Shown one piece after another: positions 34,548-55,389 of a DNA stretch of 64,000 nt. Made by a program: the position numbers and the translations under genes. Below the pieces are notes generated by a model. The model did no database searches, had not been told where the DNA came from, and saw only the letters and a list, made by a program, of their open reading frames with translations. This DNA is from a bacterium (lineage in GTDB: Bacteria; Bacteroidota; Bacteroidia; CAILMK01; JACPUW01): positions 13,171 through 77,170 of the forward strand of contig WGNN01000037.1 in NCBI GenBank assembly GCA_016124515.1. Direction: 5' to 3'. Numbering within the stretch: position 1 is the stretch's first letter; the number at the start of each line of letters is the position of its first letter.

Positions 34548-35648
34548 GTGGCTTATCCTAAGTACGAACAAACCCGTTTCTTGCGCAGCGCGCTGGCCCG
34601 TGCCAACTACCTCAACTCGTTGGTAAACTTTGTTTGGCCCAGTCTCAAAAACGAGAAACAACTAACCGATGCTGCGGCAACCGACCGCATAAGGGCATGC
34701 CTCACACAACAGCAAATTGAATGCGATTTTAATCAGGTGCGCAAAACCCTTGAAAACAAGGAAATTGTGGATCAGAACCTGAAAAGCCACATAGTAGGTT
34801 TTGCCAAATGCAACAAATACCTGGAGCAACGTATGGAAACCCTGCAGGTAGGTAATTTGAAAAAAGCCCACGAAATTCTGTTGCGAAATACCAGCCTTGA
34901 GAAGTATGGAGGCATACTGCGCAACGTGGCGCAAACCCAAAACCAACTGAACTACGAGCTGCCTGAAGAAGAACAGTTGAGCGACCTGACCAGCCTGTTG
35001 ATTGAAGACATAAACCTTGATAAGGACACAGAAAACCACCCCATCATAAAAGCCCTTAGTCTGTATTTGCTTTTTGATATTGTGCAGCCCTTTATTGTGT
35101 TCAACCACAGCTTATCGCTTATTGTGTTCAATCAGGCGCTACGCAGGTACAATTGCCATTTTATGGACCTGTTGAGTTTTGAGAAACACCTGCTGAACGA
35201 TTGGAATACCCACCAATCCATTAAACTCAACTCGCTGTTTCCGGTGAGTGCCAAAGAGCGCCTCGAAATGGATTTGACTGCGTTTTTTGAAAACTGTATG
35301 CAGGTAATGCAAGAATCGTTTGACGAGATAGAAGACAACCTGATGGCGGCACTGAAGGAATCGGTTTCGTACCCTAAATTGAAGCCCATACAGAAAAACA
35401 GTTTCAACTACCTGTTTCAGGTGGGTTTTAACAAGCACCACGAAAAAATTGACCTTCTCAACAACCGACAGAAATCCATTTTATGTGATGTAGCCTGCAA
35501 ACGAAGTGTGACCACCAAGGAAATGGTAATGAAATACCGCTGCGACAGAAAAACCATACAGCGCGACTTTGCTGACCTGATAGATATAGGAATAGTAGAA
35601 CAGGAAGGCATTACCAAAACCATCAACTACCACCTCAGCTTTGAGTGA
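34548..35648 (+). CDS. Fic-fold-like protein with degenerate active-site motif and C-terminal DeoR-type wHTH
   Basis: At the position of HPFxxGNGRxxR the sequence is QPFIVFNHSLSL. C-terminal RQKSILCDVACKRSVTTKEMVMKYRCDRKTIQRDFADLIDIGIVE is a wHTH. GTG start. Confidence 0.5.
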   Translation: MAYPKYEQTRFLRSALARANYLNSLVNFVWPSLKNEKQLTDAAATDRIRACLTQQQIECDFNQVRKTLENKEIVDQNLKSHIVGFAKCNKYLEQRMETLQVGNLKKAHEILLRNTSLEKYGGILRNVAQTQNQLNYELPEEEQLSDLTSLLIEDINLDKDTENHPIIKALSLYLLFDIVQPFIVFNHSLSLIVFNQALRRYNCHFMDLLSFEKHLLNDWNTHQSIKLNSLFPVSAKERLEMDLTAFFENCMQVMQESFDEIEDNLMAALKESVSYPKLKPIQKNSFNYLFQVGFNKHHEKIDLLNNRQKSILCDVACKRSVTTKEMVMKYRCDRKTIQRDFADLIDIGIVEQEGITKTINYHLSFE

Positions 35649-36111: not shown

Positions 36112-37884
36112 ATGCAGCAACTGAACGACATACTGGCAACCATAGACTCGTATATAGGTGGAAGCCAATGGTTTGTGTACTTGTTACTTGCCGTAGGTGT
36201 CTTTTTTACGATTTACCTTGGGTTTCCGCAAATCCGCTTTTTTGGCCATGCCCTGCGCATAGTGCGCGGCAAGTTTGACAAAGATGGCGATGAAGGTGAT
36301 ACCTCTCACTTTCAGGCTTTGGCCACCGCGCTATCGGGCACTGTGGGCACAGGCAATATAGCCGGAGTGGCTTTTGCGCTGCACCTGGGCGGACCACCCG
36401 CGCTGTTTTGGATGTTGGTAACCGCCTTTTTGGGTATGACTACCAAGTTTGTAGAGGTTACTCTTTCGCATAAATACCGCGAAAAAACCGATGATGGTTC
36501 TATGGCGGGTGGGCCCATGTATTATATGAAAAACGCCAACTTTACCTTTTCGGGCAAAAAAGTAAATCTCAAATGGTTGGCCGCCATTTTTGCTGTGGCA
36601 ACCGTTATTTCATCGTTTGGAACAGGAAATTTGCCACAGATAAACAGCATTGCCTCCTCGGTATATGCTTCGTTTGGCATTGAGAAAATGGTAACCGGTG
36701 GTGTATTGGCTGTTTTGCTGGGTGTAGTTATTATTGGTGGCATTAAGCGCATAGCCAAAGTAACTGAAAAACTGGTGCCCAGCATGGCCCTTATTTATGT
36801 GATTGGTGCACTTTCGGTACTTTTATATAATAATGAAAACATTATTCCCGGTTTTATTTCGGTATTCAGCAATGTATTCAGCGGTTCGGCTGCCACCGGT
36901 GGATTTTTAGGGGCAAGCATTATATATGCCTTCAACCGTGGAGTTAATCGCGGCTTGTTTTCAAACGAAGCCGGACAAGGTTCAGCACCTATTGCCCACG
37001 CCTCAGCCAAGGCACACGAACCCGTATCAGAAGGTATGGTGGCCATATTGGAGCCTTTTATCGACACCATAATCATTTGTACCTTAACAGGAATAACCCT
37101 CATATCGTCCGGTGTGTGGAGCGAAAAACACCTCAACGATTTTCAGTTTGCCGAAGTGGAAGTGCTGCAAGGCGACTACAACGAAGATGATAATGAGCGC
37201 AGGCTGTATTGCCATATCAATAATGTGAAAAGGCTCGAAGTAGATGGACAAAAACTAACTTTTGATTCAATACCGCCTTTTCGCGGTGAGCTTCAGGTGG
37301 CGGACGGAAAAATAATAACTGACAACATAACCATATTGCATGCACGCTCTGTAGCCGAAGACTTGAAGGTGCTGAAACTGGAAGAGCAGGACAACCTGCT
37401 GCCCGAAGAAGTGCCCTATACCGGAGCAATTCGGGTGAAAAATGGCTCGATAGTGGAAACGGACGGCCTCATTTTCAGGGGTATGTCGCTCATACACAGC
37501 GCACCGCTCACATCTGTGGCCTTCAACCAAGGTTTGTTTGGCAATTTTGGTGGCTATATCGTCACCATTGGTTTGTTGTTGTTTGCCTTCTCCACCTCCA
37601 TTTCATGGTCGTACTACGGCGATAGAGCCATTACCTATCTCATTGGTAGCAAGGGAATTTTACCTTTCAGAATATTATATATTTTGGGTTTTTTCCTTGC
37701 ATCATTTACCGACACGCAAATAATATGGACCTTTTCGGGCATTGCCATTGCCCTGATGACCCTACCTAACCTGATTGGTATTTTTTGGCTGAGACAAGAT
37801 ATGAAGCGCACCTTGAAAGAATATTGGGAAGATTTTGACAGTATTTTTCCAGGTGGCCGAAAAAATAAAAAAATAACCAAATGA
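36112..37884 (+). CDS. Alanine/glycine:cation symporter (AGCS family)
   Basis: Motifs [15 protein letters not shown] and [15 protein letters not shown]. First ATG at 36112; the track start is TTG. Contains a soluble insertion of about 130 aa. Confidence 0.85.
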
Positions 37885-38249
37885 TGAGCAATTGGCTGTT
37901 TGTGGGCGCGGGCGGATTTTTGGGCGCACTGGCACGCTACGGCATTAACAACCTGAGCAAAGGTTGGGTAAAAGAGTGGCCCTTGGGCACTTTGATTGTA
38001 AACTTAATAGGAAGCTTTTTGCTAAGCAGTTTGCTCTATGGCGTATTTAACCACAAATTGCTCAACGACCAATACCGCTTGCTCCTTATGGTGGGGTTTT
38101 GCGGCTCGCTTACCACCATGAGCACTTTTGCGCTCGATGTGGTACAGCTTGAGCAAAGCCACCGACTGCTTGAAGCCATTATCTATTTTATTATAAATTC
38201 ACTGGGTTGTATTTTCATGATTTATGTGGCCAAATTGCTTTTTGCCTAA
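37881..38249 (+). CDS. crcB: Fluoride ion channel CrcB
   Basis: 122 aa, 4 TM. Motifs [10 protein letters not shown] and [16 protein letters not shown] overlap with the upstream gene. Confidence 0.85.
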
Positions 38250-38657: not shown

Positions 38658-38767
38658 AAAAACCGTTTTTATTACTGATAACGTATGGAAATTCTTCCTA
38701 TGACTTTGCAAGACCTGTCTTTTTGTTTTGAGAGTTCAACCTTTGGTTATTACAGTTAACGAATAAA

Positions 38768-39907
38768 TCATTTCAACTTAATGTCATTTCTGCCGGCCCA
38801 CTCACCCAAATCTTGCTTGTTGAGCGCTGCGGCCATTAGGTCAGGAAATAAATTGGGCGTGCAGGCAAATACAGGCACACCAATTGAATTCAAATAATGC
38901 GCATTGTTGTGGTCGTAGTAAGGCGCTCCATCGTCGTTCAAAGCCAAAAGGGTGACCATTTGCACGCCACTTTGCACAATTTCAGCCATTTTCTGCTGCA
39001 TTTTGCTGTTGTTTCCGCCTTCGTATAAATCTGAAATAAACACCAAAACGGTATCGTTGGGTCGTGCTATGATTTGCTGACAATAGCTCAAGGCTTTGTG
39101 AATATCGGTGCCACCGCCCAATTGAATGCCAAAAAGTACTTCAACAGGATCGTCCAATTGGTCGCTCATATCGACCACGCTTGTATCAAAAACCACCAAT
39201 TTGGTATCAACTGCCGGAATTGAAGCCATCACCGCGCCAAAAATGCCTGAATACACTACCGAAGTACCCATTGAGCCACTTTGGTCTATACACAACACAA
39301 TGTCTTTCATGCTCTTTCGCTTGCGGCCATAGCCAATGCGTGTTTCGGGAATGATGGTATTGTACTCTGGTTGGAAATGCTTCAGGTTTCTTTTGATGGT
39401 TTCGTGCCAATTGATTTCATTATGACGTGGCCTTCGGTTTCGGCTTGAGCGGTTCAAACTACCGCTAATGGCCTGTTCGGTTGGCGCTTTCAATTTTTGG
39501 ATCAGGTCGTCAACCACCTTTCTTACCACCAAACGTGCCGTTTCCTTTGATTTGGCGGGCAATGCACCGCGCAAACTCATCAAGTTGGCCACCAAATGCA
39601 CGTCAGGTACCACGGTTTCAAGCATTTCGGGCTCGGTGAGCATTTGGGTAAGGCTGAGCCGGTCAAGCGCATCTTTTTGCATAACCTGCACCACACTGTT
39701 GGGAAAATACTTCCTGATATCTCCCAACCAACGGCTCACATTGGGCGACGAAGGCCCCAAACCTCCTTTGCGCTCGGTATCGTACAAGGCTTCCAGGGTT
39801 TTATCCATTCCCGCCTCGGTTTGGTTCAAATCAACATTAAGTGCTTCATCGGCATCTTTGCCCAGCACCATGCGCCAGCGTTTAATGTTGTCTTTTTCTT
39901 CGGTCAT
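38768..39907 (-). CDS. VWA-domain protein (YehP-like), last gene of the SWIM-AAA-VWA operon
   Basis: 379 aa with MIDAS motif VLCIDQSGSMGTS in the C-terminal half. 9-nt gap to the upstream gene. Confidence 0.8.
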   Translation of the reverse strand: MTEEKDNIKRWRMVLGKDADEALNVDLNQTEAGMDKTLEALYDTERKGGLGPSSPNVSRWLGDIRKYFPNSVVQVMQKDALDRLSLTQMLTEPEMLETVVPDVHLVANLMSLRGALPAKSKETARLVVRKVVDDLIQKLKAPTEQAISGSLNRSSRNRRPRHNEINWHETIKRNLKHFQPEYNTIIPETRIGYGRKRKSMKDIVLCIDQSGSMGTSVVYSGIFGAVMASIPAVDTKLVVFDTSVVDMSDQLDDPVEVLFGIQLGGGTDIHKALSYCQQIIARPNDTVLVFISDLYEGGNNSKMQQKMAEIVQSGVQMVTLLALNDDGAPYYDHNNAHYLNSIGVPVFACTPNLFPDLMAAALNKQDLGEWAGRNDIKLK

Positions 39908-39916
39908 TTCCTTGAA

Positions 39917-42163
39917 TTAATTGTCATTTTGTTCCAACACTTCCACTTGGGAAAATTCGGAAGGTGGCAATCCAACCATCCACCTCAAGGTTGGCAATAA
40001 TTTTTGGGCGCGTTCGTGGTTCAGGTTTTCTTCACTTAGCGTTTGCTTCAATCGCTTGGTACCGTGTTTGGCTTTTTCTGCAATTTTTTGTTTTTCGCTT
40101 GCGCTAAAGCTTGCAAAAGTTCTTCGCAGAAGCGGAATGGTGTCGTTAAATCCATCATCTTCCAAGCTTGAAATCCACTCATTTATGATTTCCCAAATCT
40201 CATCGTCGAGCAACAAAACCATGGCCGCATCTTTCAAAAAGCCTTCAATCCAAGCGGCGGCATGGGCGGCCTCGGTACCTATAGAAAGCGCCCTGCTGAA
40301 CCTTTTGGCTGTTTCGTTTCCAGTAATAAATTGTTGGTCGTACAACAATTTGCAACTTGTGCCATGAAGCAGTGCGGCGGCTTTTTCGTTGTCGGCCACG
40401 GCCAATAGCGTTTGCATCCAATCTTGCAGCATAGCTGAATCATCTAAGAGCAATACGCCCTGCTGCATGTCTTTGAGCACCTGCGCCATTTCGGCGGCTT
40501 GTTCTTGGTCAATGCCTGTGCAGCTCATGGGCAATGCAGCGGTAATCCGGTTAAAAATCGTGTCAACAATTTCGCCTACCACTTCAAGGTCGGTTTGCCT
40601 TACGTTGCCATATCGCTTTATTTGAATGAGCGGTAAAATGGCTTTCATCAAAACCTTGCTATCGGTGGTGGTTGATGCCAAACTGTCCATTTTTCGCATG
40701 AGCGCTTCAATGCCTTGATGCAGATCAGCCGGAAGCGCCGTTTCGAGCAAGGTGGTGATTTCGTCAAGCTTGGCACTTTCATTGGCTTTTGAAATTAAAA
40801 AAGCATTGGCGGCCATTTCAATGGTATTGCCCCAAATGGCCTTGTCGAGCAACTGCAGGGTTTGGTCGGGGCGCCACATAAGCTCCCACTGCTCCTTAAA
40901 CGTGCCTTTGCCACCCACAAAGCTTTGTTGTGCCCATTGTATTCCCAAAACAGCCACCTGATGAATCAGTACGCTTTTTTCGCGGTGGGTTTCGTCGCGC
41001 AGGTCAAGTTTCAGCGTTTTTGGTTCTTCAGTGATTTTTATTCTGAGCTTTTTGGCCTTGAGTTCCAAATCCTTTTGAATGGGAACTTGCGGCGCATCGG
41101 CGGGAACTTCGCCGTATGTATTGCCTACTATCAAATCGCGCCAAACAATGCGCATTTGCACTTCATCGCCCATGCACATTACGGTTTGGGTGGCTTCGTT
41201 TAGCTCATGCAAACCGGGTTTGGGTTTTTGCCTTAAAGCCGCAAGAGTTTGCGCAAGCCGCACACTTTCAATTACATGTGACGAGGCAATGTCAATTTGG
41301 TGTTTTCTAAAAATGGCCGCTGCTTTGCTGAGCCAAATGCTGCCGTCATCACCGGGATTTTGCCAGCAGTTTTCATAATACCCCGGTGAATTGACACCCG
41401 CGCCATAACCGCTGTAATAACTCAAACGGTCGTTGGTCCAGGGAATCCAGGTACATTCAATTTTGGTTTTGGGCAGTTTTTTGGTGAGGTCATTGTCGTG
41501 TTTGACGGTAACTTTTTTCTTAAGCGCAGGCACGTGAAAAGCACCGCAAACCACCGCTATGCTGTGAAACATTTCCTTTTCGGCCTGTCGGATGGCCTGC
41601 CGCATAAAAGCTTCGCGGCGTTGCTCGTTCAAGCTTTCGGGCAAATCCAATGCTTCGCGCAATGAAGTAAAAGCTTCTTCAATGGCCTCGAAATGCTCGT
41701 TGCTTTGGCTGCTGAGCTCAAAATGCTGTTCCCACCATTCTTCTTCGTTATCAAAACCCGCCGCCTCAGCCAAATATTGCATAGGCGATTTGTATGTAAT
41801 TGACTCATTTTCTATGTTTTCCAACAGCTCGTTTTCCGTTAGGTTTTCTGCCAATTTATGGGCCAAAGGCATGTCGATGAAACGGATGGGAATTTGGTTT
41901 TCGAGTCCGTACAAAATTGCCTGCCACTCCGGCGAATAATTGGTGAAGGGGTAAAAAGTGGCGTTTTTGGGTTCGTTTGGGTCGTAGGCCAACAAGGCAA
42001 CAGGTGGCTTCATTTCAATGTGCTGCACCCATTGCAGCATATCTTCTGCTTCGGGCGGACCTTCAATCAGGAGCACATCGGGCTTGAGTGCATTGAGCTT
42101 GTGCACCAATTGCCGCGCCGAACCGGGGCCGTGGTGGCGTATGCCTAGTAGGTGAATGGCCAT
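39917..42163 (-). CDS. Large DUF5682-like protein (YehM-like)
   Basis: 748 aa. The N-terminal IHLLGIRHHGPGSARQL matches my memory of DUF5682/YehM starts. Its position between the MoxR-type AAA and VWA genes fits that family. Confidence 0.6.
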   Translation of the reverse strand: MAIHLLGIRHHGPGSARQLVHKLNALKPDVLLIEGPPEAEDMLQWVQHIEMKPPVALLAYDPNEPKNATFYPFTNYSPEWQAILYGLENQIPIRFIDMPLAHKLAENLTENELLENIENESITYKSPMQYLAEAAGFDNEEEWWEQHFELSSQSNEHFEAIEEAFTSLREALDLPESLNEQRREAFMRQAIRQAEKEMFHSIAVVCGAFHVPALKKKVTVKHDNDLTKKLPKTKIECTWIPWTNDRLSYYSGYGAGVNSPGYYENCWQNPGDDGSIWLSKAAAIFRKHQIDIASSHVIESVRLAQTLAALRQKPKPGLHELNEATQTVMCMGDEVQMRIVWRDLIVGNTYGEVPADAPQVPIQKDLELKAKKLRIKITEEPKTLKLDLRDETHREKSVLIHQVAVLGIQWAQQSFVGGKGTFKEQWELMWRPDQTLQLLDKAIWGNTIEMAANAFLISKANESAKLDEITTLLETALPADLHQGIEALMRKMDSLASTTTDSKVLMKAILPLIQIKRYGNVRQTDLEVVGEIVDTIFNRITAALPMSCTGIDQEQAAEMAQVLKDMQQGVLLLDDSAMLQDWMQTLLAVADNEKAAALLHGTSCKLLYDQQFITGNETAKRFSRALSIGTEAAHAAAWIEGFLKDAAMVLLLDDEIWEIINEWISSLEDDGFNDTIPLLRRTFASFSASEKQKIAEKAKHGTKRLKQTLSEENLNHERAQKLLPTLRWMVGLPPSEFSQVEVLEQNDN

Positions 42164-42225
42164 TTTTGTAGCGTTTGCGTGGTTTTATTTGGTTTTAATC
42201 GTTTCATCTTTTGGTCTTTCTATTA

Positions 42226-42266
42226 TTTTGAGTGCATGGGTAACTCGGCTGGAGCCGAGCTACAAG
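42226..42266. repeat. 41-bp repeat copy 1 (REP-like, contains palindrome CTCGGCTGGAGCCGAG)
   Basis: TTTTGAGTGCATGGGTAACTCGGCTGGAGCCGAGCTACAAG is identical to 42692-42732. Confidence 0.9.
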
Positions 42267-42288
42267 ATAAAAAACAACATACGCCAAC

Positions 42289-42306
42289 GCTCGGCTCCAG
42301 CCGAGT
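42289..42306. repeat. Partial inverted copy of the REP-like palindrome
   Basis: GCTCGGCTCCAGCCGAGT contains the reverse complement of the 16-nt palindrome core. Confidence 0.7.
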
Positions 42307-42337
42307 GTAACATGTACTCCGAGTCCACAACATATTT

Positions 42338-42484
42338 CTATTCATTCTCGCCATAAACTCTTCCAGTTATTTTTTTAAGAGGATTTTCAAAATGTGCACT
42401 GCTGTAAATCCAATGATCTGGTTCAGAAACCAGCCTTGCTTTAACTGGGTTTTGCAGACTCTTTTTTGCCCCAATAGGGAACTT
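42338..42484 (-). pseudogene. C-terminal remnant of an IS200/IS605-like Y1 (RAYT-type) transposase
   Basis: The minus-strand frame reads KFPIGAKKSLQNPVKARLVSEPDHWIYSSAHFENPLKKITGRVYGENE*. The QNPVKAxLV...W.YSS signature is the conserved tail of Y1 transposases. The frame is closed by a stop immediately upstream, so only about 48 codons remain. Confidence 0.6.
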
Positions 42485-42499
42485 TCATTTATACGCCAC

Positions 42500-42703
42500 T
42501 TATAAGCCATTTACGCCATTTATTAATTCATAAAATGCCCCTTTTCTTTTTCCTTTCATAATTAGAATTTCTTTTTCAACCAGTAATTCTAGGTCTCTTA
42601 CTGATGTTCTCGCTGATGTTTGATTTAAATTTTGGTAATCACTATTCGTTATTTTTCCATTCTCTTTTACAAAAAGTACGGCCTTCACTTGTTTTGAGTG
42701 CAT
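42500..42703 (-). pseudogene. Orphan winged-HTH fragment (C-terminal type found in Fic / AlbA-type regulators)
   Basis: VLFVKENGKITNSDYQNLNQTSARTSVRDLELLVEKEILIMKGKRKGAFYELI. The longer track ORF (to 42799) reads through repeat copy 2 and overlaps the AAA gene end. It could alternatively be a 67-aa stand-alone regulator. Confidence 0.4.
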
Positions 42704-42732
42704 GGGTAACTCGGCTGGAGCCGAGCTACAAG
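42692..42732. repeat. 41-bp repeat copy 2 (REP-like)
   Basis: Identical to 42226-42266, in direct orientation, 27 nt downstream of the AAA gene stop. Confidence 0.9.
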
Positions 42733-42759
42733 GTAAAAACCAACAGTTGCCATCACTTA

Positions 42760-43842
42760 TCAAATTATATCTCTGCAAGATCGGTAAATATCTTTCCAAC
42801 CTTCGCGTTGTTTGAGCACGGTTTCCATGTATTCCTGAAAAACCACTTTGTCTTGCACAGGATCTTTAACTACAGCTCCCAAAACACCGCTCGCCAAATC
42901 ATCTGCTTTTATGCTGCCATCGCCAAAATGGTGGCTTAGGGCCAGGCCGCTGTTCATCACCGAAATGGCTTCTGCCGTGCTCAATGTGCCGCTCGGTGAT
43001 TTCAATTTGGTTTTTCCATCTTCTGAAACGCCATTGCGCAACTCCCTGAAAATGGTCACTATGCGTTTTATCTCCTCTAAAATGGGTTTTTCAATGGGCA
43101 TGTCAATGGCTTTGCTGAAGCTGCTAACCCGTTGACGCACAATTTCCACCTCTTCGTCCATAGTGGCGGGAACCGGTAGAATTACCGTATTGAACCTTCT
43201 TTTTAAGGCACTCGAAAGTTCGTTTACGCCTTTGTCGCGGTTGTTGGCGGTGGCTATCACGTTGAAACCACGGGTGGCTTGTATTTGGGTGTTGAGCTCC
43301 GGTATCGGCATCATTTTTTCCGACAAAATGGTGATGAGCGTATCTTGCACATCAGCGCCTATTCGGGTCAGTTCTTCTACACGCACGGTTTTTCCGGCTT
43401 TCATTCCTTTTATCATGGGGGTTTCAACCACGGCTTCGGGCACCGGACCTTTGGCCAAAAGCAAGGCGTAGTTCCAACCGTATCTTATGGCTTCTTCGCT
43501 TGTGCCGGCGGTTCCTTGAATTATCAGGTTTGAGTTGCCCGATATGGCCGCTGCCAAATGCTCAGAGACCCATGATTTTGCAGTTCCGGGCAAACCGTAA
43601 AGCAGCAAGGCCCTGTCGGTGGTGAGTGTGGCTACGGCAATTTCCATTAGCCTTTTGTTGCCAATGTATTTGGGTGAAATATCCACGCCGTTTTTGAGTT
43701 TGCCACCCATTAAATAAGTAACCACAGCCTGCGGTGACAATTGCCAATTTTGCGGTTTTGAATGTGTATCCGTTGCCTTCAGCGCATCAAGTTCGTGTGC
43801 AAATTGCTCTTCGGCTGATTGTCTTAGTATGTTATGTGCCAT
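42760..43842 (-). CDS. MoxR-type AAA+ ATPase (AAA_5; YehL-like)
   Basis: 360 aa. Walker A LYGLPGTAKS, a Walker B region, and a MoxR-like SSALKRRF segment. Confidence 0.8.
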   Translation of the reverse strand: MAHNILRQSAEEQFAHELDALKATDTHSKPQNWQLSPQAVVTYLMGGKLKNGVDISPKYIGNKRLMEIAVATLTTDRALLLYGLPGTAKSWVSEHLAAAISGNSNLIIQGTAGTSEEAIRYGWNYALLLAKGPVPEAVVETPMIKGMKAGKTVRVEELTRIGADVQDTLITILSEKMMPIPELNTQIQATRGFNVIATANNRDKGVNELSSALKRRFNTVILPVPATMDEEVEIVRQRVSSFSKAIDMPIEKPILEEIKRIVTIFRELRNGVSEDGKTKLKSPSGTLSTAEAISVMNSGLALSHHFGDGSIKADDLASGVLGAVVKDPVQDKVVFQEYMETVLKQREGWKDIYRSCRDII

Positions 43843-43855
43843 TCTTTATTATTTT

Positions 43856-45355
43856 TCAGTTGATGGTAAGTCGCTCCATTTCTTCAAGAATATAGAGCAT
43901 TTCATTTAGTTGGTTTTTCAAAAATCTTAGCTCAAAATGGCCGTCGCCAATTCGGTGGGCCAGTTCCTGCAAATTGTTTTTATGTGAGAGTGGAAGTAAA
44001 TAAGCCAATTCGGTGTACTGCGCGGCGGTAATTAAATAGGGTGCACGTTTTAAAGTCCTTATTACAAAAACAGTTAAATCATAATCAATTGGTTTGTTGC
44101 GGTTGATGATATACAATAAGGCTTGCGCAGGTGGACCCATATTTGTGCCCTGTGGTTCCTTTTGAAGGTTTTGTGTTAAAATTTCATTTTGTTTGGCTTC
44201 GGGTAAAACATCAAGTAAACGGTTATCTGCCATTCCCGACTTTTCAATAAGCAAGCCCGCCAATTGGGTGTCTTTAAAATTAATGGCCCATTGCACCAAA
44301 AAAGGTTTCAACAAGTCGTAATCATTATGATTTACAAAGAGTTTAAAAATTTCGTCCTTTGGTAAAATATACTTGTGCGCTATGGCATCAGGAGGTACCA
44401 CTGTGAGGCATTGCGCCATCCAAAACAAATGGTCTGAAAACCCTTTTTGAGAACTTATTTGCTCCAATCCAAAACTAAAAAGCACATCGGCAGGTCGTGT
44501 TTCCTTCACTTCAAGCAACCGTTTTTTACCCATGAGCAACCGGCGTTCTTCTTTTATATGAATGGCGTTGAAAAAATGCTCTGCAAATGCTTTGTTCACA
44601 ACGCTACCGGGCAGTTCTTGTAGAAGGGCAGCCGCCTTGTTTTGCACTTTTGTGCTTCGGTCTTGCAGCAATTCCATTAGAAATTCTTCGTCATATTTTC
44701 CGCTGTTTTGCTCCAAAACTTCTATAAAAGCCAAGCGGTTGTTGGCGTTTTCTTGCGGCAGGGTTTGTTTGAGCAAGGCAATGACTTCTTGTGGATGGTG
44801 TTTCCGCAAATCCGCTACATACAACAATCGGCTGTTGAAATCCATTAGTTCCCAATCAAGTGCTTTGGTTTTTGCGCCAAAAAGTGTTTGCCAATTTTTG
44901 TTGAATTGTGCCAACCAAGCGGCTCTGAGCCCCAGGCAATCTAAAAATGCTTGATTTGCCAACTCTTTGTGTTTTAATGCCAAATTGAGCAAAGCCGGCA
45001 CCAGCCGTGGCGAAACTATCATGTTTTTCTGTAGCAATTGCCGTTGGGCAAAGGCTATAAGCCGGGCATTCCCCTTATTTATAACCCTTTCAAAAGTGTT
45101 TTGAAAACGAAGCGGGGCATAGGTTTTTACTTCGGGCGGGGCTTCTTTGGCGGGGCCTGTATTTTTTGCCAATTGCACCGCCGCCTCAAAATAGTTGAGC
45201 ACCAAAAAACTTGATTTTAAAAAAGCATCTTCGTTGTCGCTTTGCCCCTTTTTTATGCTTTCAATTTCATTGCTTAAAATACTTCCCATGGTATTTGGGC
45301 TGTATTTGGCGGTGCCTAAAATGGCGGTTTTTATCAACTCCTTTTCTACACTCAT
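43856..45355 (-). CDS. Helical-repeat protein, DUF5691-like by position
   Basis: About 499 aa from ATG 45355, which forms an ATGA overlap with the SWIM gene stop. All-helical. From memory, DUF5691 occupies this position in SWIM-AAA-DUF5682-VWA clusters. Confidence 0.5.
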   Translation of the reverse strand: MSVEKELIKTAILGTAKYSPNTMGSILSNEIESIKKGQSDNEDAFLKSSFLVLNYFEAAVQLAKNTGPAKEAPPEVKTYAPLRFQNTFERVINKGNARLIAFAQRQLLQKNMIVSPRLVPALLNLALKHKELANQAFLDCLGLRAAWLAQFNKNWQTLFGAKTKALDWELMDFNSRLLYVADLRKHHPQEVIALLKQTLPQENANNRLAFIEVLEQNSGKYDEEFLMELLQDRSTKVQNKAAALLQELPGSVVNKAFAEHFFNAIHIKEERRLLMGKKRLLEVKETRPADVLFSFGLEQISSQKGFSDHLFWMAQCLTVVPPDAIAHKYILPKDEIFKLFVNHNDYDLLKPFLVQWAINFKDTQLAGLLIEKSGMADNRLLDVLPEAKQNEILTQNLQKEPQGTNMGPPAQALLYIINRNKPIDYDLTVFVIRTLKRAPYLITAAQYTELAYLLPLSHKNNLQELAHRIGDGHFELRFLKNQLNEMLYILEEMERLTIN

Positions 45356-46668
45356 AAGCAATGGATTTGTTGGTTTACCACTATGGCTGCCACCGAAAAA
45401 TGCATGGATTCAATCAATAGGAAAGCATCAAAACTTTTGCCGCCGCTTAACGCCAATAATTGCCACAACTGATCCTGTTTGTTTTCAATTAGTATTGTGT
45501 TGGCGTATTGGTCAACCAACTGCATTTTTTCTTCATGAAATATTATAGATACGTTTCCAATAAATGCACCTGTGTTTTCAACCAGCGGATTTTGGGCCTT
45601 CACCTTGGTTATTTTTTCGAATAAATCATCGAGCGAGCGTAAATCAGGCTTCAGCTTAAGGGGTTCGTTACTTGTGCTTTTTGACTTGACCAAAGCCCGC
45701 TGATTGCCCACACCTGGGTAAAAACACAAGGCCGCATCAATTAACTGCCGCGATGTAAGCAACTCGTGGGGTTTTTGAGCACCGGCATAAAAATCAAGCA
45801 CCAAGGCCATTTTTTTGGTGCTAGTGCCATAGAGCCAATTTTTCACAGTGGTGAGTTTTTCGTTGGTTTCCGCACTGTGCGAAAAAACCAGCCACTGATC
45901 GTGCACCGGCGTTTGAGCCAATACCTCCTCTTTGCTCACCGACCAGCCTACAAGGGCATTTATTTCAGCTTGCCAATCGCTATTTAGCTGCGCGCGTTGC
46001 TTGTAAAGCTCAGTAATGGCATACATGCGCGACAGTTTTTTGAGCAGTTGCTTTTCCCAGCCCTCCGCATAGAAATTGATGTTTTCAATACTTCTGAGTT
46101 CGGCAGCCAAACCACCGGCTTGGGCATCAACCATACGCGAGGCAATGTTGGCAGTGAACGAATAAAGGTTTTGCGGAACGTTCATAATGCCGTTTCGCAC
46201 CACATCCTTGAGCCACAATTGCAGTTCTTCAATGCCACTGTCCACCTTCAATTCGCGCTTTTCAATGCGCTTGCTTTGGGCCTTTTCATCAAGGGGTTTT
46301 TCGACTTTTTGTGCCGCTTTTTCCTGCCGGGCTTCTCTTTTGTTGAGCCACTCGTTTACAAAGTCGGGCAAGTCGTTTTGCGTAGTAAATGCATTTTGAT
46401 TTTGCGCATAAAGCAATAAAAGACCAAGACCATGTTTGCAGGGAAATTTTCGACTGGGGCAGGAACATTTAAAGGCCATGTTTTGCGCGTCGATGGCCGT
46501 TTTGTATGGGTTTTTGCCGCTGCCCTGGCAGTAGCCCCACAAGGCCTGTTGGTTGTAAGCCAATGTGAGCCAATGACTTGGAGATGCCAGTTTTTGGGCG
46601 GCTGTAAGCGAACCGCTATCAGGAGCAAGTTGGCGTATTTGGTCGGGACTTATTTTCAAATGAACCAC
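45352..46668 (-). CDS. SWIM zinc-finger protein (YehQ-like)
   Basis: 438 aa. CSCPSRKFPCKHGLGLLLLY is the CxCx(n)CxH SWIM motif. Confidence 0.8.
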   Translation of the reverse strand: MVHLKISPDQIRQLAPDSGSLTAAQKLASPSHWLTLAYNQQALWGYCQGSGKNPYKTAIDAQNMAFKCSCPSRKFPCKHGLGLLLLYAQNQNAFTTQNDLPDFVNEWLNKREARQEKAAQKVEKPLDEKAQSKRIEKRELKVDSGIEELQLWLKDVVRNGIMNVPQNLYSFTANIASRMVDAQAGGLAAELRSIENINFYAEGWEKQLLKKLSRMYAITELYKQRAQLNSDWQAEINALVGWSVSKEEVLAQTPVHDQWLVFSHSAETNEKLTTVKNWLYGTSTKKMALVLDFYAGAQKPHELLTSRQLIDAALCFYPGVGNQRALVKSKSTSNEPLKLKPDLRSLDDLFEKITKVKAQNPLVENTGAFIGNVSIIFHEEKMQLVDQYANTILIENKQDQLWQLLALSGGKSFDAFLLIESMHFSVAAIVVNQQIHCL

Positions 46669-46781
46669 AAATTAGGCTGTGCTAATATGGGGAAATGCCT
46701 TTGAAAGGAGAAGAGAAATTGACCACAATTTTTTGAGGCGGGAAGCTGTAGCTGCTTTGGGTTAGCTATGAAGTAAACCGC

Positions 46782-47240
46782 TTATGCTGGTTGGAGTAAA
46801 AGGCTTTGTAGCGTGAGAAAAAAAGGATTATTCATCAGCAACAAATCATTGCATAAGAGTGCAAGCTTGTCTTTTTGATGATGGATGACCTTGTGAACGT
46901 ATTTTGGGTCATTCTCAGAGAAATAATCGCCCAATTGCTTGCTCGATTTTTTTACCGCCTTTTGTAACCAAAATTCGAGATTTGGGCAAAGTGCAATGAC
47001 TTTGTTTTGGTTTGTGTCAATTAAGAGGCGCAGATCATGAAGTTCACTCTCAAGCCTCATGCCTTGTAAGTGAGTAGGTTGCACTTGAAATGGATCTTCG
47101 TCAATCATCGCAATTTGATGTGACAGCTTTTTGATTTTGGCCATTACCCTCCCTTTATCGTTATGGTGGCTGATAGCCTTTCTTTCAATGCCAAAACACT
47201 TTAATATATGTTCGTCTGCAAAACATTCAACATGGTACAT
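46782..47240 (-). CDS. Small Toprim-like protein (DUF4276/DUF4435/RloB-like class), partner of the upstream ATPase
   Basis: From ATG 47240: MYHVECFADEHILKCFGI...GRVMAKI...IAMIDEDP shows the Toprim pattern of a conserved Glu near the N-terminus followed by DxD. It starts 1 nt after the ATPase stop. Confidence 0.5.
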   Translation of the reverse strand: MYHVECFADEHILKCFGIERKAISHHNDKGRVMAKIKKLSHQIAMIDEDPFQVQPTHLQGMRLESELHDLRLLIDTNQNKVIALCPNLEFWLQKAVKKSSKQLGDYFSENDPKYVHKVIHHQKDKLALLCNDLLLMNNPFFLTLQSLLLQPA

Positions 47241-47241
47241 T

Positions 47242-48219
47242 TTATCCCAATTTTTCAAATTCATAAAAAATATCGGAGCCCATTTCCAATAAATCTCCGT
47301 AGGTATCTGAATTCAAGACTGTTGTTTTTGTCTCAAAATCAATCATTTCAGTTTTAATGATGTTCAAATCATCCTTTTTTGTTTTTTCAATTAAACTCAT
47401 CAACAAATAGGGGTTATGAGTAGAAATGAAATATTGGTTTCTATTGTCCATACCTATCATTTCTGCAACCATTTTTGTATAGAAAGGAAAAGTATTCGCC
47501 TCAGGTTCATCAAAAATCAAAATAGAATTTTCATTACTTTCTATAGCCAATAGCATAAAGGCGTATCGCCGAAGGGTTTCTGAAGTGGTATGGTAGGGAT
47601 AGGAAAGCAATTCATCATTAAAATCCTTCACAATTTCAATTTCCTGAGTTACCGGTTTTAACACCAATCGCAAGCCCTTGGCATTATAAATATCAGCAAC
47701 AATTTTCTTGAATTTAGTATTTCCCAAAAGCAAAGTGGGTAGGTTTTGACCAAAAGGCGGGCTTAAAAAAGGCCGGTGGTCATTATTAAAACCATTTAGA
47801 TTTTTGTATTGGTAGAATTTGAAATTCGTATCAAATAAGTGCGACGCCTCACCGATAGTTATATTGCTGTTGAAATAAGCTGTAGATAGCTCATCACTAC
47901 CTCTAAAATACTGTATTTCAAACGAAGTCATAGAATTTGGCTTCCGCTGAATTTTAAAAGACAATACATCATTCATGACCGAAATGGGTTCATTGAAATT
48001 AGAATCAAATGCCAAATTTCCAATGTCCTTTCCCCTCACAATTTCTGAAAGATATTCAGGTGCATTGATTGATAAAAAGTACAATGACTCCAAAATATTG
48101 GATTTACCCGAATTGGGCTCGCCAATAAAAACATTGACCCTTTTGGTAGGAAACTCCACCTTTTTTACAGACTTAAAATTCTTGATCTCAAGTCGCGACA
48201 TGAAATGTTTGTCTTCCAT
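47242..48219 (-). CDS. ABC/SMC-type AAA ATPase (AAA_15/AAA_21-like)
   Basis: RLEIKNFKSVKKVEF...FIGEPNSGKSNILESL (Walker A), SETLRR (signature-like), ILIFDEPEANTFP (Walker B), FISTHNPYLL (H-loop). 325 aa. Confidence 0.75.
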   Translation of the reverse strand: MEDKHFMSRLEIKNFKSVKKVEFPTKRVNVFIGEPNSGKSNILESLYFLSINAPEYLSEIVRGKDIGNLAFDSNFNEPISVMNDVLSFKIQRKPNSMTSFEIQYFRGSDELSTAYFNSNITIGEASHLFDTNFKFYQYKNLNGFNNDHRPFLSPPFGQNLPTLLLGNTKFKKIVADIYNAKGLRLVLKPVTQEIEIVKDFNDELLSYPYHTTSETLRRYAFMLLAIESNENSILIFDEPEANTFPFYTKMVAEMIGMDNRNQYFISTHNPYLLMSLIEKTKKDDLNIIKTEMIDFETKTTVLNSDTYGDLLEMGSDIFYEFEKLG

Positions 48220-55311: not shown

Positions 55312-55389
55312 TACAACCGCATATCTTACCAGTCTGAATTGCCACAAATGGTCAGGTCTGATAGCGGTTTTTAATTACCATTGCACAAA

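What the first reader, a model, noticed from the sequence alone, without database searches (positions are those of the whole stretch)
38768..46668. Five-gene SWIM / DUF5691-like / MoxR AAA / DUF5682-like / VWA operon (yehLMPQ-like) of unknown function
All five genes are codirectional. Coupling is near-perfect at three junctions: an ATGA overlap at 45352-45355, a 13-nt gap at 43843-43855 and a 9-nt gap at 39908-39916.

Motifs seen:
- SWIM CxCx(n)CxH (CSCPSRKFPCKH).
- Walker A GLPGTAKS in a 360-aa MoxR-type ATPase.
- MIDAS DQSGS in a 379-aa VWA protein.

From memory, the sizes 360/748/379 aa closely mirror E. coli YehL/YehM/YehP (about 362/759/378 aa), with the SWIM protein YehQ adjacent. No function is established for that locus.

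MoxR-VWA pairs generally act as ATP-driven remodelling or activation machines, and MoxR-vWA modules have been proposed as NTP-dependent conflict systems. Here the operon lies directly downstream of an ATPase/Toprim pair and carries a mobile-element scar. Both fit an accessory, possibly defensive role.
Basis: partly seen in the sequence, partly recalled or inferred. Interest (0 to 1): 0.8.

Follow-up and report, generated by a model that had tools for sequence, protein, structure and literature searches.

The report
Conserved MoxR–VWA operon with TraB-like hydrolase
This is a real, intact five-gene operon found in at least a dozen bacterial phyla, related to the uncharacterised E. coli yehLMPQ genes; its signature protein (DUF5682/YehM) appears to carry a TraB/TIKI-type hydrolase domain, which gives a testable mechanism, while the suggested anti-phage role is not supported.

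Summary
**Observation: confirmed.** Five codirectional minus-strand genes lie at 38768-46668, with every quoted motif and junction in place. All five Pfam assignments hold: SWIM, DUF5691, AAA_5 MoxR, DUF5682 and VWA_CoxE.

**Distribution.** The order SWIM–DUF5691–MoxR–DUF5682–VWA recurs across about 12 phyla. More than 600 species matched, and the family has about 4,000 clusters at 50% identity.
- It behaves as a discrete unit. A close relative (88% identical DUF5682) shares DNA only between 46731 and 38765.
- SWIM and DUF5691 are fused into one protein in a Hymenobacter plasmid.

**Relation to E. coli yehLMPQ.**
- Only the MoxR–DUF5682–VWA core is shared, at 40, 26 and 33% identity.
- E. coli has DUF4132 instead of DUF5691.
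- Its SWIM gene lies downstream rather than upstream.

**New inference.** The DUF5682 N-terminal domain has a TraB/TIKI/erythromycin-esterase-like fold. Two GxxH motifs and several acidic residues are about 100% conserved, so it is probably a hydrolase gated by the MoxR–VWA pair.

**Defence role: not supported.**
- There are no PADLOC hits.
- 112 neighbouring genes show no defence enrichment.
- The cassette is absent from viral contigs.
- yehLMPQ is core in E. coli (5353 of 5426 genomes).

**Verdict.** This is a new member of a known but uncharacterised family, of moderate interest.

The parts
45352..46668 (-). Gene 1: SWIM zinc-finger protein, 438 aa, GTG start. The finger is at residues 66-80 (FKCSCPSRKFPCKHG).
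   Evidence: - ORF. Pfam SWIM scores 22.6 bits.
- C68, C70, C77 and H79 are invariant in 33 homologues from many phyla.
- No PDB relative was found.
43856..45355 (-). Gene 2: DUF5691 protein, 499 aa from the ATG at 45355 (501 aa from the TTG at 45361). It is HEAT-like and alpha-helical. Its start overlaps the SWIM stop (ATGA).
   Evidence: - Pfam DUF5691 scores 192 bits, with a weak HEAT_2 hit.
- The profile weakly hits artificial HEAT-repeat (alphaRep) proteins in the PDB.
- It is fused to the SWIM protein in Hymenobacter sp. HDW8, as a 1009-aa protein.
- It is the fastest-evolving component, at 22-34% identity.
42760..43842 (-). Gene 3: MoxR-type AAA+ ATPase, 360 aa, of the YehL subfamily.
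   Evidence: - Pfam AAA_5 scores 112 bits.
- It is 40% identical to E. coli YehL.
- Walker A (GLPGTAKS), the Walker B region, TANN and RRF are conserved in 58 sequences.
- Identity across phyla is 63-80%.
- The nearest solved relative is the AAA ring of Midasin.
42164..42759 (.). Intergenic insertion between MoxR and DUF5682. It contains:
- three REP-like palindromes (42244-42259, 42290-42305, 42710-42725);
- a 74-nt direct repeat (42218-42291 and 42684-42757);
- a 67-codon ORF (42500-42703, minus strand).
   Evidence: - Shown.
- In most other loci this junction is under 30 nt, but 12 of 55 loci have 200 nt or more here.
- A close relative carries an intact 447-aa SLFN_AlbA_2/HATPase_c_4/HTH gene at this site.
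39917..42163 (-). Gene 4: DUF5682 protein, 748 aa, the signature gene.
- N-terminal alpha/beta domain: about residues 1-345, nt 41129-42163.
- Small beta-rich region: about residues 380-430.
- C-terminal alpha-solenoid: about residues 432-730, nt 39974-40870.
   Evidence: - Pfam DUF5682 scores 807 bits.
- The AF2 model has pLDDT 83. Its solenoid hits ARM/HEAT/TPR structures.
- For the N-domain model, the top BFVD hit is a TraB family protein (E 2e-4, probability 1.00).
- The top PDB hits are a 383-384-residue Tetrahymena complex IV chain. This is inferred to be the TraB-family subunit COXTT5.
38768..39907 (-). Gene 5: CoxE-type VWA protein, 379 aa, with a complete MIDAS (DQSGS ... GGGTD ... 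SDLYEGG).
   Evidence: - Pfam VWA_CoxE scores 166 bits.
- The MIDAS residues are at least 95% conserved in 58 sequences.
- It is 33% identical to YehP.
- No solved relative is found at E <= 0.01.
38765..46731 (-). Extent of the cassette as a unit. This is the only DNA shared with the locus of a close relative.
   Evidence: blastn against L085 gives 75-82% identity from 46731 to 42762 and from 42196 to 38765. The flanks show no similarity and encode different genes.

Best explanation
The five genes encode one self-contained, ATP-driven protein machine of the YehL subfamily of MoxR ATPases.

**Proposed mechanism**
- The MoxR hexamer and its CoxE-type VWA adaptor work as in other MoxR–VWA pairs. 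The MIDAS site grips an acidic residue of a partner, and ATP hydrolysis remodels that partner.
- Here the partner is most likely the DUF5682 protein encoded between them.
- The DUF5682 N-terminal domain is a TraB/GumN/TIKI/erythromycin-esterase-type hydrolase domain. It has two strand-end GxxH motifs plus conserved Glu, Asp and Arg residues.
- The DUF5682 C-terminus is an alpha-solenoid docking platform.
- The SWIM protein and the HEAT-like DUF5691 protein form a pair, and are fused in some genomes. This pair is the most variable part and most likely recruits or senses the target.
- The output would be ATP-gated hydrolysis, probably site-specific proteolysis, of a still unknown substrate.

**Shown:** the families, the operon, its conservation and mobility as a unit, the SWIM–DUF5691 fusion, the fold assignment and the residue conservation.

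**Inferred:** who acts on whom, catalytic activity, the substrate and the biological role. The role is probably an accessory stress or conflict response, not a standard phage-defence island gene and not part of a linked metabolic pathway.
For: **One functional unit**
- The gene order is conserved in about 70 of 80 loci from about 12 phyla.
- Genes overlap or are tightly spaced.
- The homology boundaries against a close relative are sharp.
- SWIM and DUF5691 are fused in one genome.
- No other neighbour recurs except DUF4132, in 9 of 80 loci.

**Active ATPase and MIDAS**
- Walker A and B, sensor, Arg and MIDAS residues are conserved.

**Hydrolase domain**
- The top BFVD Foldseek hit for the N-domain is 'TraB family protein', and it is the only hit at E <= 0.001 (E 2e-4, probability 1.00, TM 0.46 normalised by target length).
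- The top three PDB hits (E 6e-3, probability 0.90) are a 383-384-residue chain of Tetrahymena complex IV. The only subunit of that size is COXTT5, a 385-aa 'TraB family protein'.
- The erythromycin-esterase homologue 2QGM has the highest TM normalised by query length.
- hhalign against E. coli TraB-family YbaP picks exactly the two GxxH motifs and the strand-Glu motif as its best local alignments.
- H10, H11, E34, E79, D97, E149, R183, E184, G207 and H210 are 96-100% conserved in 150 cluster representatives, and are also present in YehM. For H10 and H11 the shortfall is only gaps in five sequences plus one H11-to-Y change.
- The TIKI superfamily uses a 2His/2Glu catalytic set (PMC6254334).

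**Division of labour**
- Conservation falls in the order MoxR (63-80%), VWA (50-72%), DUF5682 (38-52%), SWIM (about 30-46%), DUF5691 (22-34%).
- This fits a conserved motor with a variable recognition module.

**Precedent**
- MoxR–VWA pairs activate or remodel dedicated partners (PMC3893208; PMC7159879).
- MoxR–vWA systems with peptidase effectors have been proposed (PMC12839542).
Against: - Sequence-level similarity to TraB is not significant (hhalign P 0.14-0.23).
- Foldseek TM-scores are low: 0.26-0.31 normalised by the query and 0.46 at best by the target.
- The N-domain model is only moderate (pLDDT 74).
- The identity of the PDB chain is inferred from its length alone.
- Some members of the superfamily, such as ChaN, bind ligands rather than hydrolyse them (from memory, not checked).
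- No complex prediction could be run, so the assignment of partner, adaptor and sensor roles is inference.
- No substrate, phenotype or inducing signal is known.
- The very high conservation of MoxR and VWA could instead reflect an external, highly conserved client.
Confidence: 0.4

Rival explanations
1. An anti-phage or anti-mobile-element defence system. SWIM–DUF5691 would sense an invader. MoxR–VWA would transduce the signal. DUF5682 would be the effector, causing abortive infection or degrading the invader.
For: - The distribution is patchy but wide, and the genomic context varies, even within Chitinophaga where 25 of 28 locus pairs share 0-1 flanking genes.
- The cassette moves as a unit.
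- The recognition-like genes are the most variable.
- It is formally similar to the MoxR–vWA conflict systems that carry peptidase effectors.
- In this window it sits next to an AAA_15/AAA_21 ATPase that hits AriA, ATPase-Toprim and HEC-01A models.
- The E. coli genes are silenced by H-NS/StpA.
Against: - No PADLOC model hits any of the five proteins.
- Among 112 nearest neighbours, only a few generic PADLOC hits appear, and the Pfam content is housekeeping.
- There is no confirmed relative in 2.9 million viral contigs, one phage record, and few plasmid records.
- yehLMPQ is single-copy and present in 98.7% of complete E. coli genomes.
- MoxR and VWA are far more conserved than is usual for immune genes.
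- The bpMoxR model scores below its cut-off (21.4 against 27).
Confidence: 0.17
2. A dedicated chaperone or maturation system for an unlinked cellular client, such as a metalloenzyme or a respiratory or ribosomal complex. This would resemble RavA–ViaA, NorQ–NorD, CbbQ–CbbO or CoxD–CoxE, with DUF5682, SWIM and DUF5691 acting as scaffolding cofactors rather than an enzyme.
For: - This is the general precedent for MoxR–VWA pairs.
- The VWA belongs to the CoxE family.
- MoxR conservation across phyla is extreme (63-80%).
- The cluster is core in E. coli.
- The closest solved ATPase relative is Midasin, a ribosome-assembly remodeller.
Against: - No client gene is linked to the cassette in any of 80 loci.
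- The patchy distribution does not track any known pathway.
- Three further proteins are conserved alongside the pair, one with an invariant enzyme-like residue set.
- S. sonnei lineages have lost yehL and yehM.
Confidence: 0.2
3. A DNA-damage or genotoxic-stress response module. The SWIM finger would bind DNA, and the operon would be induced by damage.
For: - E. coli yeh lies next to the WGR/DUF4132 genes yehF, yehH (molR) and yehI.
- One paper cites molR as part of the LexA regulon. It also reports a Deinococcus DUF4132 gene strongly induced on DdrO depletion.
- A near-consensus LexA box (CTGGATAAAATTACAG) lies 25 nt upstream of yehF.
- DUF4132 is an optional sixth gene in 9 of 80 loci.
Against: - No credible LexA or RDRM motif lies upstream of the SWIM genes in the fetched loci or in the window. 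There were only scattered one-mismatch matches to the E. coli-type LexA pattern, one cyanobacterial-type near-match (L048) and one two-mismatch RDRM-like hit (L065).
- This window has no WGR or DUF4132 gene next to the cassette.
- No nuclease or repair domain was detected.
Confidence: 0.07

Closest known systems
E. coli yehL-yehM-yehP-yehQ (the YehL subfamily of MoxR ATPases; function unknown)
   Same: - It shares the triad MoxR(AAA_5)–DUF5682–VWA_CoxE in the same order and with near-identical sizes: 360/748/379 aa here against 362/759/378 aa in E. coli.
- Identities are 40%, 26% and 33%.
- A SWIM protein lies in the same operon.
- The GxxH, Glu, Asp and Arg residues of DUF5682 are conserved in YehM.
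   Different: - In E. coli the SWIM gene is downstream, and its protein (614 aa) is similar only in the finger.
- E. coli has no DUF5691. Large DUF4132 genes (yehH, yehI), WGR (yehF) and yehK lie upstream instead.
- DUF5691 and DUF4132 show no detectable homology.
MoxR–vWA 'ternary' NTP-dependent conflict systems (Kaur et al. 2020, PMC7159879)
   Same: - Both have a MoxR ATPase plus a vWA protein plus a variable repeat-containing third component.
- Both have a predicted peptidase-type effector.
- Both are patchily distributed in large-genome environmental bacteria.
   Different: - The paper does not mention SWIM, Yeh or DUF4132.
- The bpMoxR model scores below threshold here.
- The vWA protein carries no fused effector or adaptor domain.
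- There is no beta-propeller or iSTAND partner.
- No defence-island context was found.
TIKI / TraB / PrgY / GumN / erythromycin esterase / RRSP hydrolase superfamily
   Same: - The DUF5682 N-domain has an alpha/beta core.
- It has two strand-end GxxH motifs and a strand-end Glu, collinear with E. coli YbaP.
- Its best structural matches are TraB-family proteins and an Ere homologue.
   Different: - There is no significant sequence-profile match.
- The domain has a large helical insertion (about residues 100-196).
- It is fused to a roughly 400-residue C-terminal region and embedded in a MoxR–VWA operon. I found no paper in the library describing that combination for this superfamily.
CoxD–CoxE, NorQ–NorD, CbbQ–CbbO and RavA–ViaA activase pairs
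   Same: All have an AAA+ MoxR gene next to a VWA gene with a MIDAS site. The VWA here belongs to the CoxE Pfam family.
   Different: Those pairs are linked to, or act on, a defined enzyme (CO dehydrogenase, NO reductase, Rubisco, Nuo/Frd). No such client is linked to this cassette in any of 80 loci.

Membership tests
YehL-type MoxR–DUF5682–VWA cassette (yehLMPQ kind) | AAA_5 MoxR ATPase with intact Walker A and B, related to YehL | tested here: met
   AAA_5 scores 112 bits. It is 40% identical to YehL over 364 aligned columns. The motifs are conserved.
YehL-type MoxR–DUF5682–VWA cassette (yehLMPQ kind) | DUF5682 (YehM-like) gene directly downstream of MoxR | tested here: met
   DUF5682 scores 807 bits, and YehM scores 331 bits on the same model. 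The two genes are adjacent but separated by a 596-nt insertion.
YehL-type MoxR–DUF5682–VWA cassette (yehLMPQ kind) | CoxE-type VWA protein with MIDAS directly downstream of DUF5682 | tested here: met
   VWA_CoxE scores 166 bits. The gap is 9 nt. It is 33% identical to YehP.
YehL-type MoxR–DUF5682–VWA cassette (yehLMPQ kind) | SWIM protein in the operon | tested here: met
   SWIM scores 22.6 bits against a cut-off of 19.6. The CxC...CxH residues are invariant in 33 homologues.
YehL-type MoxR–DUF5682–VWA cassette (yehLMPQ kind) | Same gene order and accessory genes as E. coli (DUF4132 upstream, SWIM downstream) | tested here: not met
   Here SWIM and DUF5691 are upstream and no DUF4132 is present. 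hhalign finds nothing significant between DUF5691 and DUF4132, and only the finger between the SWIM protein and YehQ. This is a distinct, and in the sample the commoner, architecture.
TIKI/TraB/GumN/erythromycin-esterase superfamily (DUF5682 N-domain) | Alpha/beta core with structural similarity to family members | tested here: met
   - The top BFVD hit is a TraB family protein (E 2e-4, probability 1.00).
- The top PDB hits are an inferred TraB-family COXTT5 chain (E 6e-3, probability 0.90), and 2QGM is also listed.
- TM-scores are low (0.26-0.46), so the match is moderate.
TIKI/TraB/GumN/erythromycin-esterase superfamily (DUF5682 N-domain) | Conserved catalytic His and Glu set (two GxxH motifs plus Glu) | tested here: met
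   The motifs are G7-x-x-H10, E34 and G207-x-x-H210. H10 is 97% conserved (gaps only), and E34, G207 and H210 are 99-100% conserved, in 152 sequences including YehM. They are collinear with the YbaP motifs.
TIKI/TraB/GumN/erythromycin-esterase superfamily (DUF5682 N-domain) | Statistically significant sequence or profile similarity | tested here: not met
   hhalign gives P 0.14-0.23. There is no Pfam TraB hit at E <= 10. The YbaP profile available was narrow (Neff 2.2).
TIKI/TraB/GumN/erythromycin-esterase superfamily (DUF5682 N-domain) | Hydrolase activity or metal dependence | not testable with these tools
   This needs biochemistry.
MoxR–vWA ternary conflict systems (Kaur et al. 2020) | bpMoxR-type ATPase, vWA fused to effector or adaptor domains, beta-propeller or iSTAND third component | tested here: not met
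   bpMoxR scores 21.4 bits against a cut-off of 27. Pfam finds no extra domain on the VWA protein and no propeller or STAND partner. The paper does not list SWIM or Yeh.
Known or candidate anti-phage defence systems (PADLOC-DB v2) | Protein matches to a defence model, and residence among defence genes | tested here: not met
   There are no meaningful hits. The only ones are IetA at E about 1e-3 and HEAT-ARM at E 2e-4. Neighbour scans were negative.
CoxD/CoxE-, NorQ/NorD-, CbbQ/CbbO-type activases | Genetic linkage to the client enzyme | tested here: not met
   No enzyme gene recurs in the flanks of 80 loci.

The most novel reading that the evidence does not exclude
The YehL-type cassettes, including E. 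coli yehLMPQ, are a previously unrecognised class of ATP-gated TraB/TIKI-type protease machines. A MoxR–VWA motor would switch on a site-specific hydrolase (DUF5682/YehM) when a SWIM–HEAT sensor engages its target. They would serve as a regulated-proteolysis or conflict/immune module spread by horizontal transfer through more than 10 bacterial phyla.
Probability: 0.3. Interest if true: 0.75.

Novelty: new member of a known kind. Interest (0 to 1): 0.5.

Why it matters
**An open question.** In the papers searched here, the YehL subfamily is named as one of seven MoxR subfamilies but no function is given for it. MoxR-family roles are described as unclear in general (PMC3893208, 2014). The classification dates, from memory, to 2006. 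Its partner proteins are still DUFs.

**Scale.** The cassette is large (about 2,400 residues) and strongly conserved. It is present in at least 600 species, and a variant is found in nearly every E. coli genome. No paper in the searched library discusses it.

**What this adds.** Assigning a TraB/TIKI-type hydrolase fold, with an invariant His/Glu set, to DUF5682/YehM turns 'unknown function' into a concrete hypothesis. It can be tested genetically in E. coli K-12 with point mutants of the YehM residues aligned with H10, E34 and H210, in an hns background where the operon is expressed.

**A caution.** A MoxR–VWA pair lying next to a defence-like ATPase is not sufficient evidence for an immune role.

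Tried and rejected
1. **Full-length DUF5682 model against the PDB.** Only generic alpha-solenoid hits appeared, which says nothing about the N-domain.
2. **Histidine-phosphatase fold for the N-domain** (an RHG-like 'RHHG' motif, and Sts-1 hits at probability <= 0.44).
   - hhalign against E. coli GpmA aligns an irrelevant segment.
   - The BFVD histidine-phosphatase hits have E > 1.
   - This fold is rejected in favour of a TraB-like fold.
3. **Sequence-level proof of TraB homology.**
   - The YbaP homologue search returned only close enterobacterial relatives, so the profile was shallow.
   - hhalign was not significant.
   - The YbaP profile found no PDB chain.
   - A control run with 150 random templates timed out.
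4. **DUF5691 as a diverged DUF4132, and the SWIM protein as a YehQ orthologue.** hhalign found nothing beyond the zinc finger.
5. **SOS or RDR regulation.** No credible LexA or RDRM boxes lie upstream of the SWIM genes.
6. **The 67-codon ORF in the insertion as a remnant of the relative's SLFN_AlbA_2/HATPase_c_4 gene.** tblastn gave E = 3.2, so this is not supported. Pfam gives no family for that ORF or for the tyrosine-transposase-like fragment I thought I recognised from memory.
7. **Promoter and terminator scan.** Fewer matches than in shuffled sequence, so uninformative.
8. **Rfam and tRNA scans of the window.** Nothing was found.
9. **Literature.** Most 'yehL' hits are the surname Yehl, and 'SWIM' matches 'swimming'.

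Full report
**1. What is in the sequence**

Five minus-strand ORFs occupy 38768-46668.

| Gene | Coordinates | Size | Pfam hit |
|---|---|---|---|
| SWIM protein | 45352-46668 | 438 aa | SWIM, 22.6 bits (cut-off 19.6) |
| DUF5691 protein | 43856-45355/45361 | 499/501 aa | DUF5691, 192 bits |
| MoxR ATPase | 42760-43842 | 360 aa | AAA_5, 112 bits |
| DUF5682 protein | 39917-42163 | 748 aa | DUF5682, 807 bits over the whole length |
| VWA protein | 38768-39907 | 379 aa | VWA_CoxE, 166 bits |

- The SWIM, Walker A and MIDAS motifs are present.
- NCBIfam has no specific model for any of the five.
- The exact DUF5682 protein is on record only as 'hypothetical protein' from an unclassified MAG.
- The window's other genes point to Bacteroidota. 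They include T9SS CHU_C proteins, and the best homologues are from Sphingobacteriia and Chitinophagia.

**2. The fourth junction**

- A 596-nt gap (42164-42759) lies between MoxR and DUF5682.
- It contains three copies of the palindrome CTCGGCTSSAGCCGAG, found nowhere else in the window.
- It also contains a 74-nt direct repeat spaced 466 nt apart, and a 67-codon ORF.
- Across related loci this junction is the only loose one. The median gap is 23 nt, but 12 of 55 loci have 200 nt or more. The other three junctions have medians of -0.5, 10.5 and -1 nt.
- A close relative (DUF5682 88% identical) carries an intact SLFN_AlbA_2/HATPase_c_4/HTH gene at this position.
- Other loci carry a DUF4132 gene or small ORFs there.
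- All five ORFs in the window are full length relative to their homologues.

**3. Distribution and unity of the cassette**

The best 80 loci come from:
  - Bacteroidota, Cyanobacteriota, Acidobacteriota and Chloroflexota;
  - Actinomycetota, Pseudomonadota, Verrucomicrobiota and Planctomycetota;
  - Deinococcota, Myxococcota, Armatimonadota and Melainabacteria-like lineages.
- tblastn shows SWIM–DUF5691–MoxR–DUF5682–VWA in that order in most loci. About 70 of 80 have MoxR next to DUF5682. The rest are short contigs or cyanobacterial loci where DUF5682 stands alone.
- An exhaustive HMMER search finds 4,006 clusters at 50% identity with E <= 1e-3.
- Identity to the window falls in this order:

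| Component | Identity to the window |
|---|---|
| MoxR | 63-80% |
| VWA | 50-72% |
| DUF5682 | 38-52% |
| SWIM | about 30-46% |
| DUF5691 | 22-34% |

- Flanking genes do not recur. The only repeated extra gene is a roughly 977-aa DUF4132/HEAT protein, in 9 loci.
- Against the close relative, DNA similarity (75-82%) starts at 46731 and ends at 38765, with unrelated flanks.
- Within Chitinophaga, 25 of 28 locus pairs share 0-1 flanking gene families.
- In Hymenobacter sp. HDW8 the SWIM and DUF5691 proteins are one 1009-aa polypeptide. This argues that the two interact.

**4. Relation to E. coli yehLMPQ**

- The K-12 locus reads yehF (WGR) – yehH (pseudogene, DUF4132-like) – yehI (DUF4132) – yehK – yehL – yehM – yehP – yehQ.
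- MoxR/YehL are 40% identical, VWA/YehP 33%, and DUF5682/YehM 26% over 505 residues. YehM matches the DUF5682 model at 331 bits.
- The SWIM proteins share only the finger. DUF5691 has no counterpart in E. coli and no detectable similarity to DUF4132.
- The window therefore carries a sister architecture built on the same MoxR–DUF5682–VWA core.
- Literature:
  - YehL is one of seven MoxR subfamilies, and MoxR-family roles in vivo are described as unclear (PMC3893208).
  - yehL and yehM are derepressed in hns/stpA mutants (PMC3686432).
  - They are deleted in S. sonnei lineages 2 and 3 (PMC12795559).
  - No held paper mentions DUF5682, DUF5691 or yehLMPQ.
  - The main MoxR–vWA conflict-system paper does not mention SWIM or Yeh.

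**5. What the parts are**

- *MoxR.* Walker A, the Walker B region, sensor and Arg motifs are conserved in 58 sequences. The VWA MIDAS (DxSxS...T...D) is also conserved.
- *Nearest solved relatives.* For MoxR it is the Midasin AAA ring. None was found for the VWA, SWIM or DUF5691 proteins apart from weak HEAT-repeat matches.
- *DUF5682 architecture.* The AF2 model (pLDDT 83) shows an N-terminal alpha/beta domain (about 1-345), a small beta region and a C-terminal alpha-solenoid. The whole-chain fold search saw only the solenoid.
- *N-domain fold.* Modelled alone (pLDDT 74), the N-domain gave these matches:
  - In the PDB, the top three hits are a 383-384-residue chain of Tetrahymena complex IV (best E 6e-3, probability 0.90). 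The erythromycin-esterase homologue 2QGM has the highest query-normalised TM.
  - The supercomplex paper lists exactly one complex IV subunit of that size, COXTT5, 385 aa, a 'TraB family protein'. The chain assignment is my inference from length.
  - 2QGM is BcR136, an Ere homologue.
  - In BFVD, the single significant hit is 'TraB family protein [Marseillevirus]' (E 2e-4, probability 1.00, 257 columns).
- *Sequence motifs.* hhalign against E. coli TraB-family YbaP is not significant (P about 0.14-0.23). However, its best local alignments are the motifs expected for this superfamily:
  - IHLLGIRHHG...PDVLLIEGPP against FHLIGSIHMG...ADALIVEADV;
  - IAVVCGAFHVPAL against YVVAVGALHLYGE.
- *Rival fold.* GpmA, a histidine phosphatase, aligns nowhere relevant.
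- *Residue conservation.* The TIKI superfamily uses a 2His/2Glu catalytic set on a parallel beta-sheet core (PMC6254334). H10, H11, E34, E79, D97, E149, R183, E184, G207 and H210 are 96-100% conserved in 150 cluster representatives and present in YehM. For H10 and H11 the shortfall is five gapped sequences plus one H11-to-Y.
- *Conclusion.* I put about 0.75 confidence on the N-domain being a TraB/TIKI/Ere-type domain, probably catalytic.

**6. Is it a defence system?**

- None of the five proteins hits PADLOC-DB.
- The 112 genes nearest the cassette in about 30 loci are ABC transporters, AraC regulators, glycosidases, SufE, kinases and the like. Only a few generic PADLOC matches appear.
- The family has no confirmed relative in 2.9 million IMG/VR contigs and appears in one 'phage' record.
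- It is in 44 of 72,556 plasmid records, mostly megaplasmids, chromids or mislabelled chromosomes.
- E. coli yehLMPQ is in 5353 of 5426 complete genomes, in single copy.
- The upstream AAA_15/AAA_21 ATPase (47242-48219) does hit AriA, ATPase-Toprim and HEC-01A models. It is not a conserved neighbour, however, and its 160-aa partner has no HMM support.
- The defence reading therefore survives only as a minority possibility. What supports it is the cassette's mobility and the faster evolution of the putative recognition genes.

**7. Most likely mechanism**

- By analogy with characterised MoxR–VWA pairs, the ATPase ring and the MIDAS adaptor remodel a dedicated partner.
- The only partners always present are DUF5682 and the SWIM–DUF5691 pair.
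- I propose that DUF5682 is a latent TraB/TIKI-type hydrolase on a solenoid platform, and that SWIM–DUF5691 supplies target recognition.
- I further propose that MoxR–VWA couples ATP hydrolysis to activation or turnover of the complex.
- Shown: the composition, conservation, fusion, fold and residues. Inferred: the interaction map, catalysis, the substrate and the biological role.

**8. Verdict**

- It is a new member of a known but functionally uncharacterised family (YehL-type cassettes), in the architecture that is commonest outside enterobacteria.
- The added value is the hydrolase assignment, which makes the family experimentally approachable in E. coli.
- Interest is moderate, at 0.5.

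Noticed in passing
window 42164-42759: A REP-like insertion lies inside the operon. It has three CTCGGCTSSAGCCGAG palindromes, a 74-nt direct repeat spaced 466 nt apart, and a 67-codon ORF (42500-42703, minus strand) that looks like a winged-helix tail. A roughly 50-codon fragment (about 42340-42480) resembles, from memory only, the C-terminus of REP-associated/IS200-like tyrosine transposases. Pfam gives no hit for either.
   Followed up: partly
window 46782-48219 (minus strand): A two-gene pair sits directly upstream of the cassette. One gene is an AAA_15/AAA_21 ATPase (325 aa) that hits PADLOC AriA, ATPase-Toprim_I-B, HEC-01A and AbiLi models. It overlaps a 160-aa protein with no family hit. 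This may be a small defence-type module of its own, but it is not conserved next to the cassette in other genomes.
   Followed up: partly
L085 8268-9611 (close relative); also L060 7058-9985, L027 12265-15198, L083 8368-8979: The MoxR|DUF5682 junction (and in L027 the DUF5682|VWA junction) is a recurrent insertion site for accessory genes. These include a SLFN_AlbA_2/HATPase_c_4/HTH gene, DUF4132 genes and a small membrane protein. 12 of 55 loci have 200 nt or more at the MoxR|DUF5682 junction.
   Followed up: partly
L083 4189-7218 (Hymenobacter sp. HDW8 plasmid NZ_CP049908.1): The SWIM and DUF5691 proteins are fused into one 1009-aa protein. The record annotates it only as 'DUF5691 domain-containing protein'.
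   Followed up: yes
L081 (E. coli K-12 2204596-2210944) and E. coli genomes: yehLMPQ is nearly universal in E. coli, yet 934 genomes match at only 90-95% nucleotide identity. This seems divergent for a core locus. A near-consensus LexA box (CTGGATAAAATTACAG) lies 25 nt upstream of yehF.
   Followed up: no
L019 (QFQQ01000029.1, labelled MAG Citrobacter freundii): This contig carries a cassette whose MoxR is 74% identical to the Bacteroidota window, far closer than E. coli YehL (40%). That suggests either a mis-binned contig or recent transfer.
   Followed up: no
window 34548-35648 (+): A 366-aa protein has a sub-threshold Fic/DOC hit (22.8 bits against a cut-off of 24) and a weak C-terminal HTH. 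It lies among housekeeping genes (metK, an E1 dehydrogenase, an alanine symporter, crcB).
   Followed up: no
window 37881-38249 (+) and the whole window: crcB overlaps the end of the alanine symporter gene, and no fluoride riboswitch is detected. Rfam found no family and ARAGORN found no tRNA anywhere in the 64 kb.
   Followed up: partly
window 50455-55311 and 55381-60267 (+): Two tandem giant ORFs (1618 and 1628 aa) lie here. The first ends in a CHU_C type IX secretion sorting domain. This points to a Bacteroidota origin for the MAG.
   Followed up: partly
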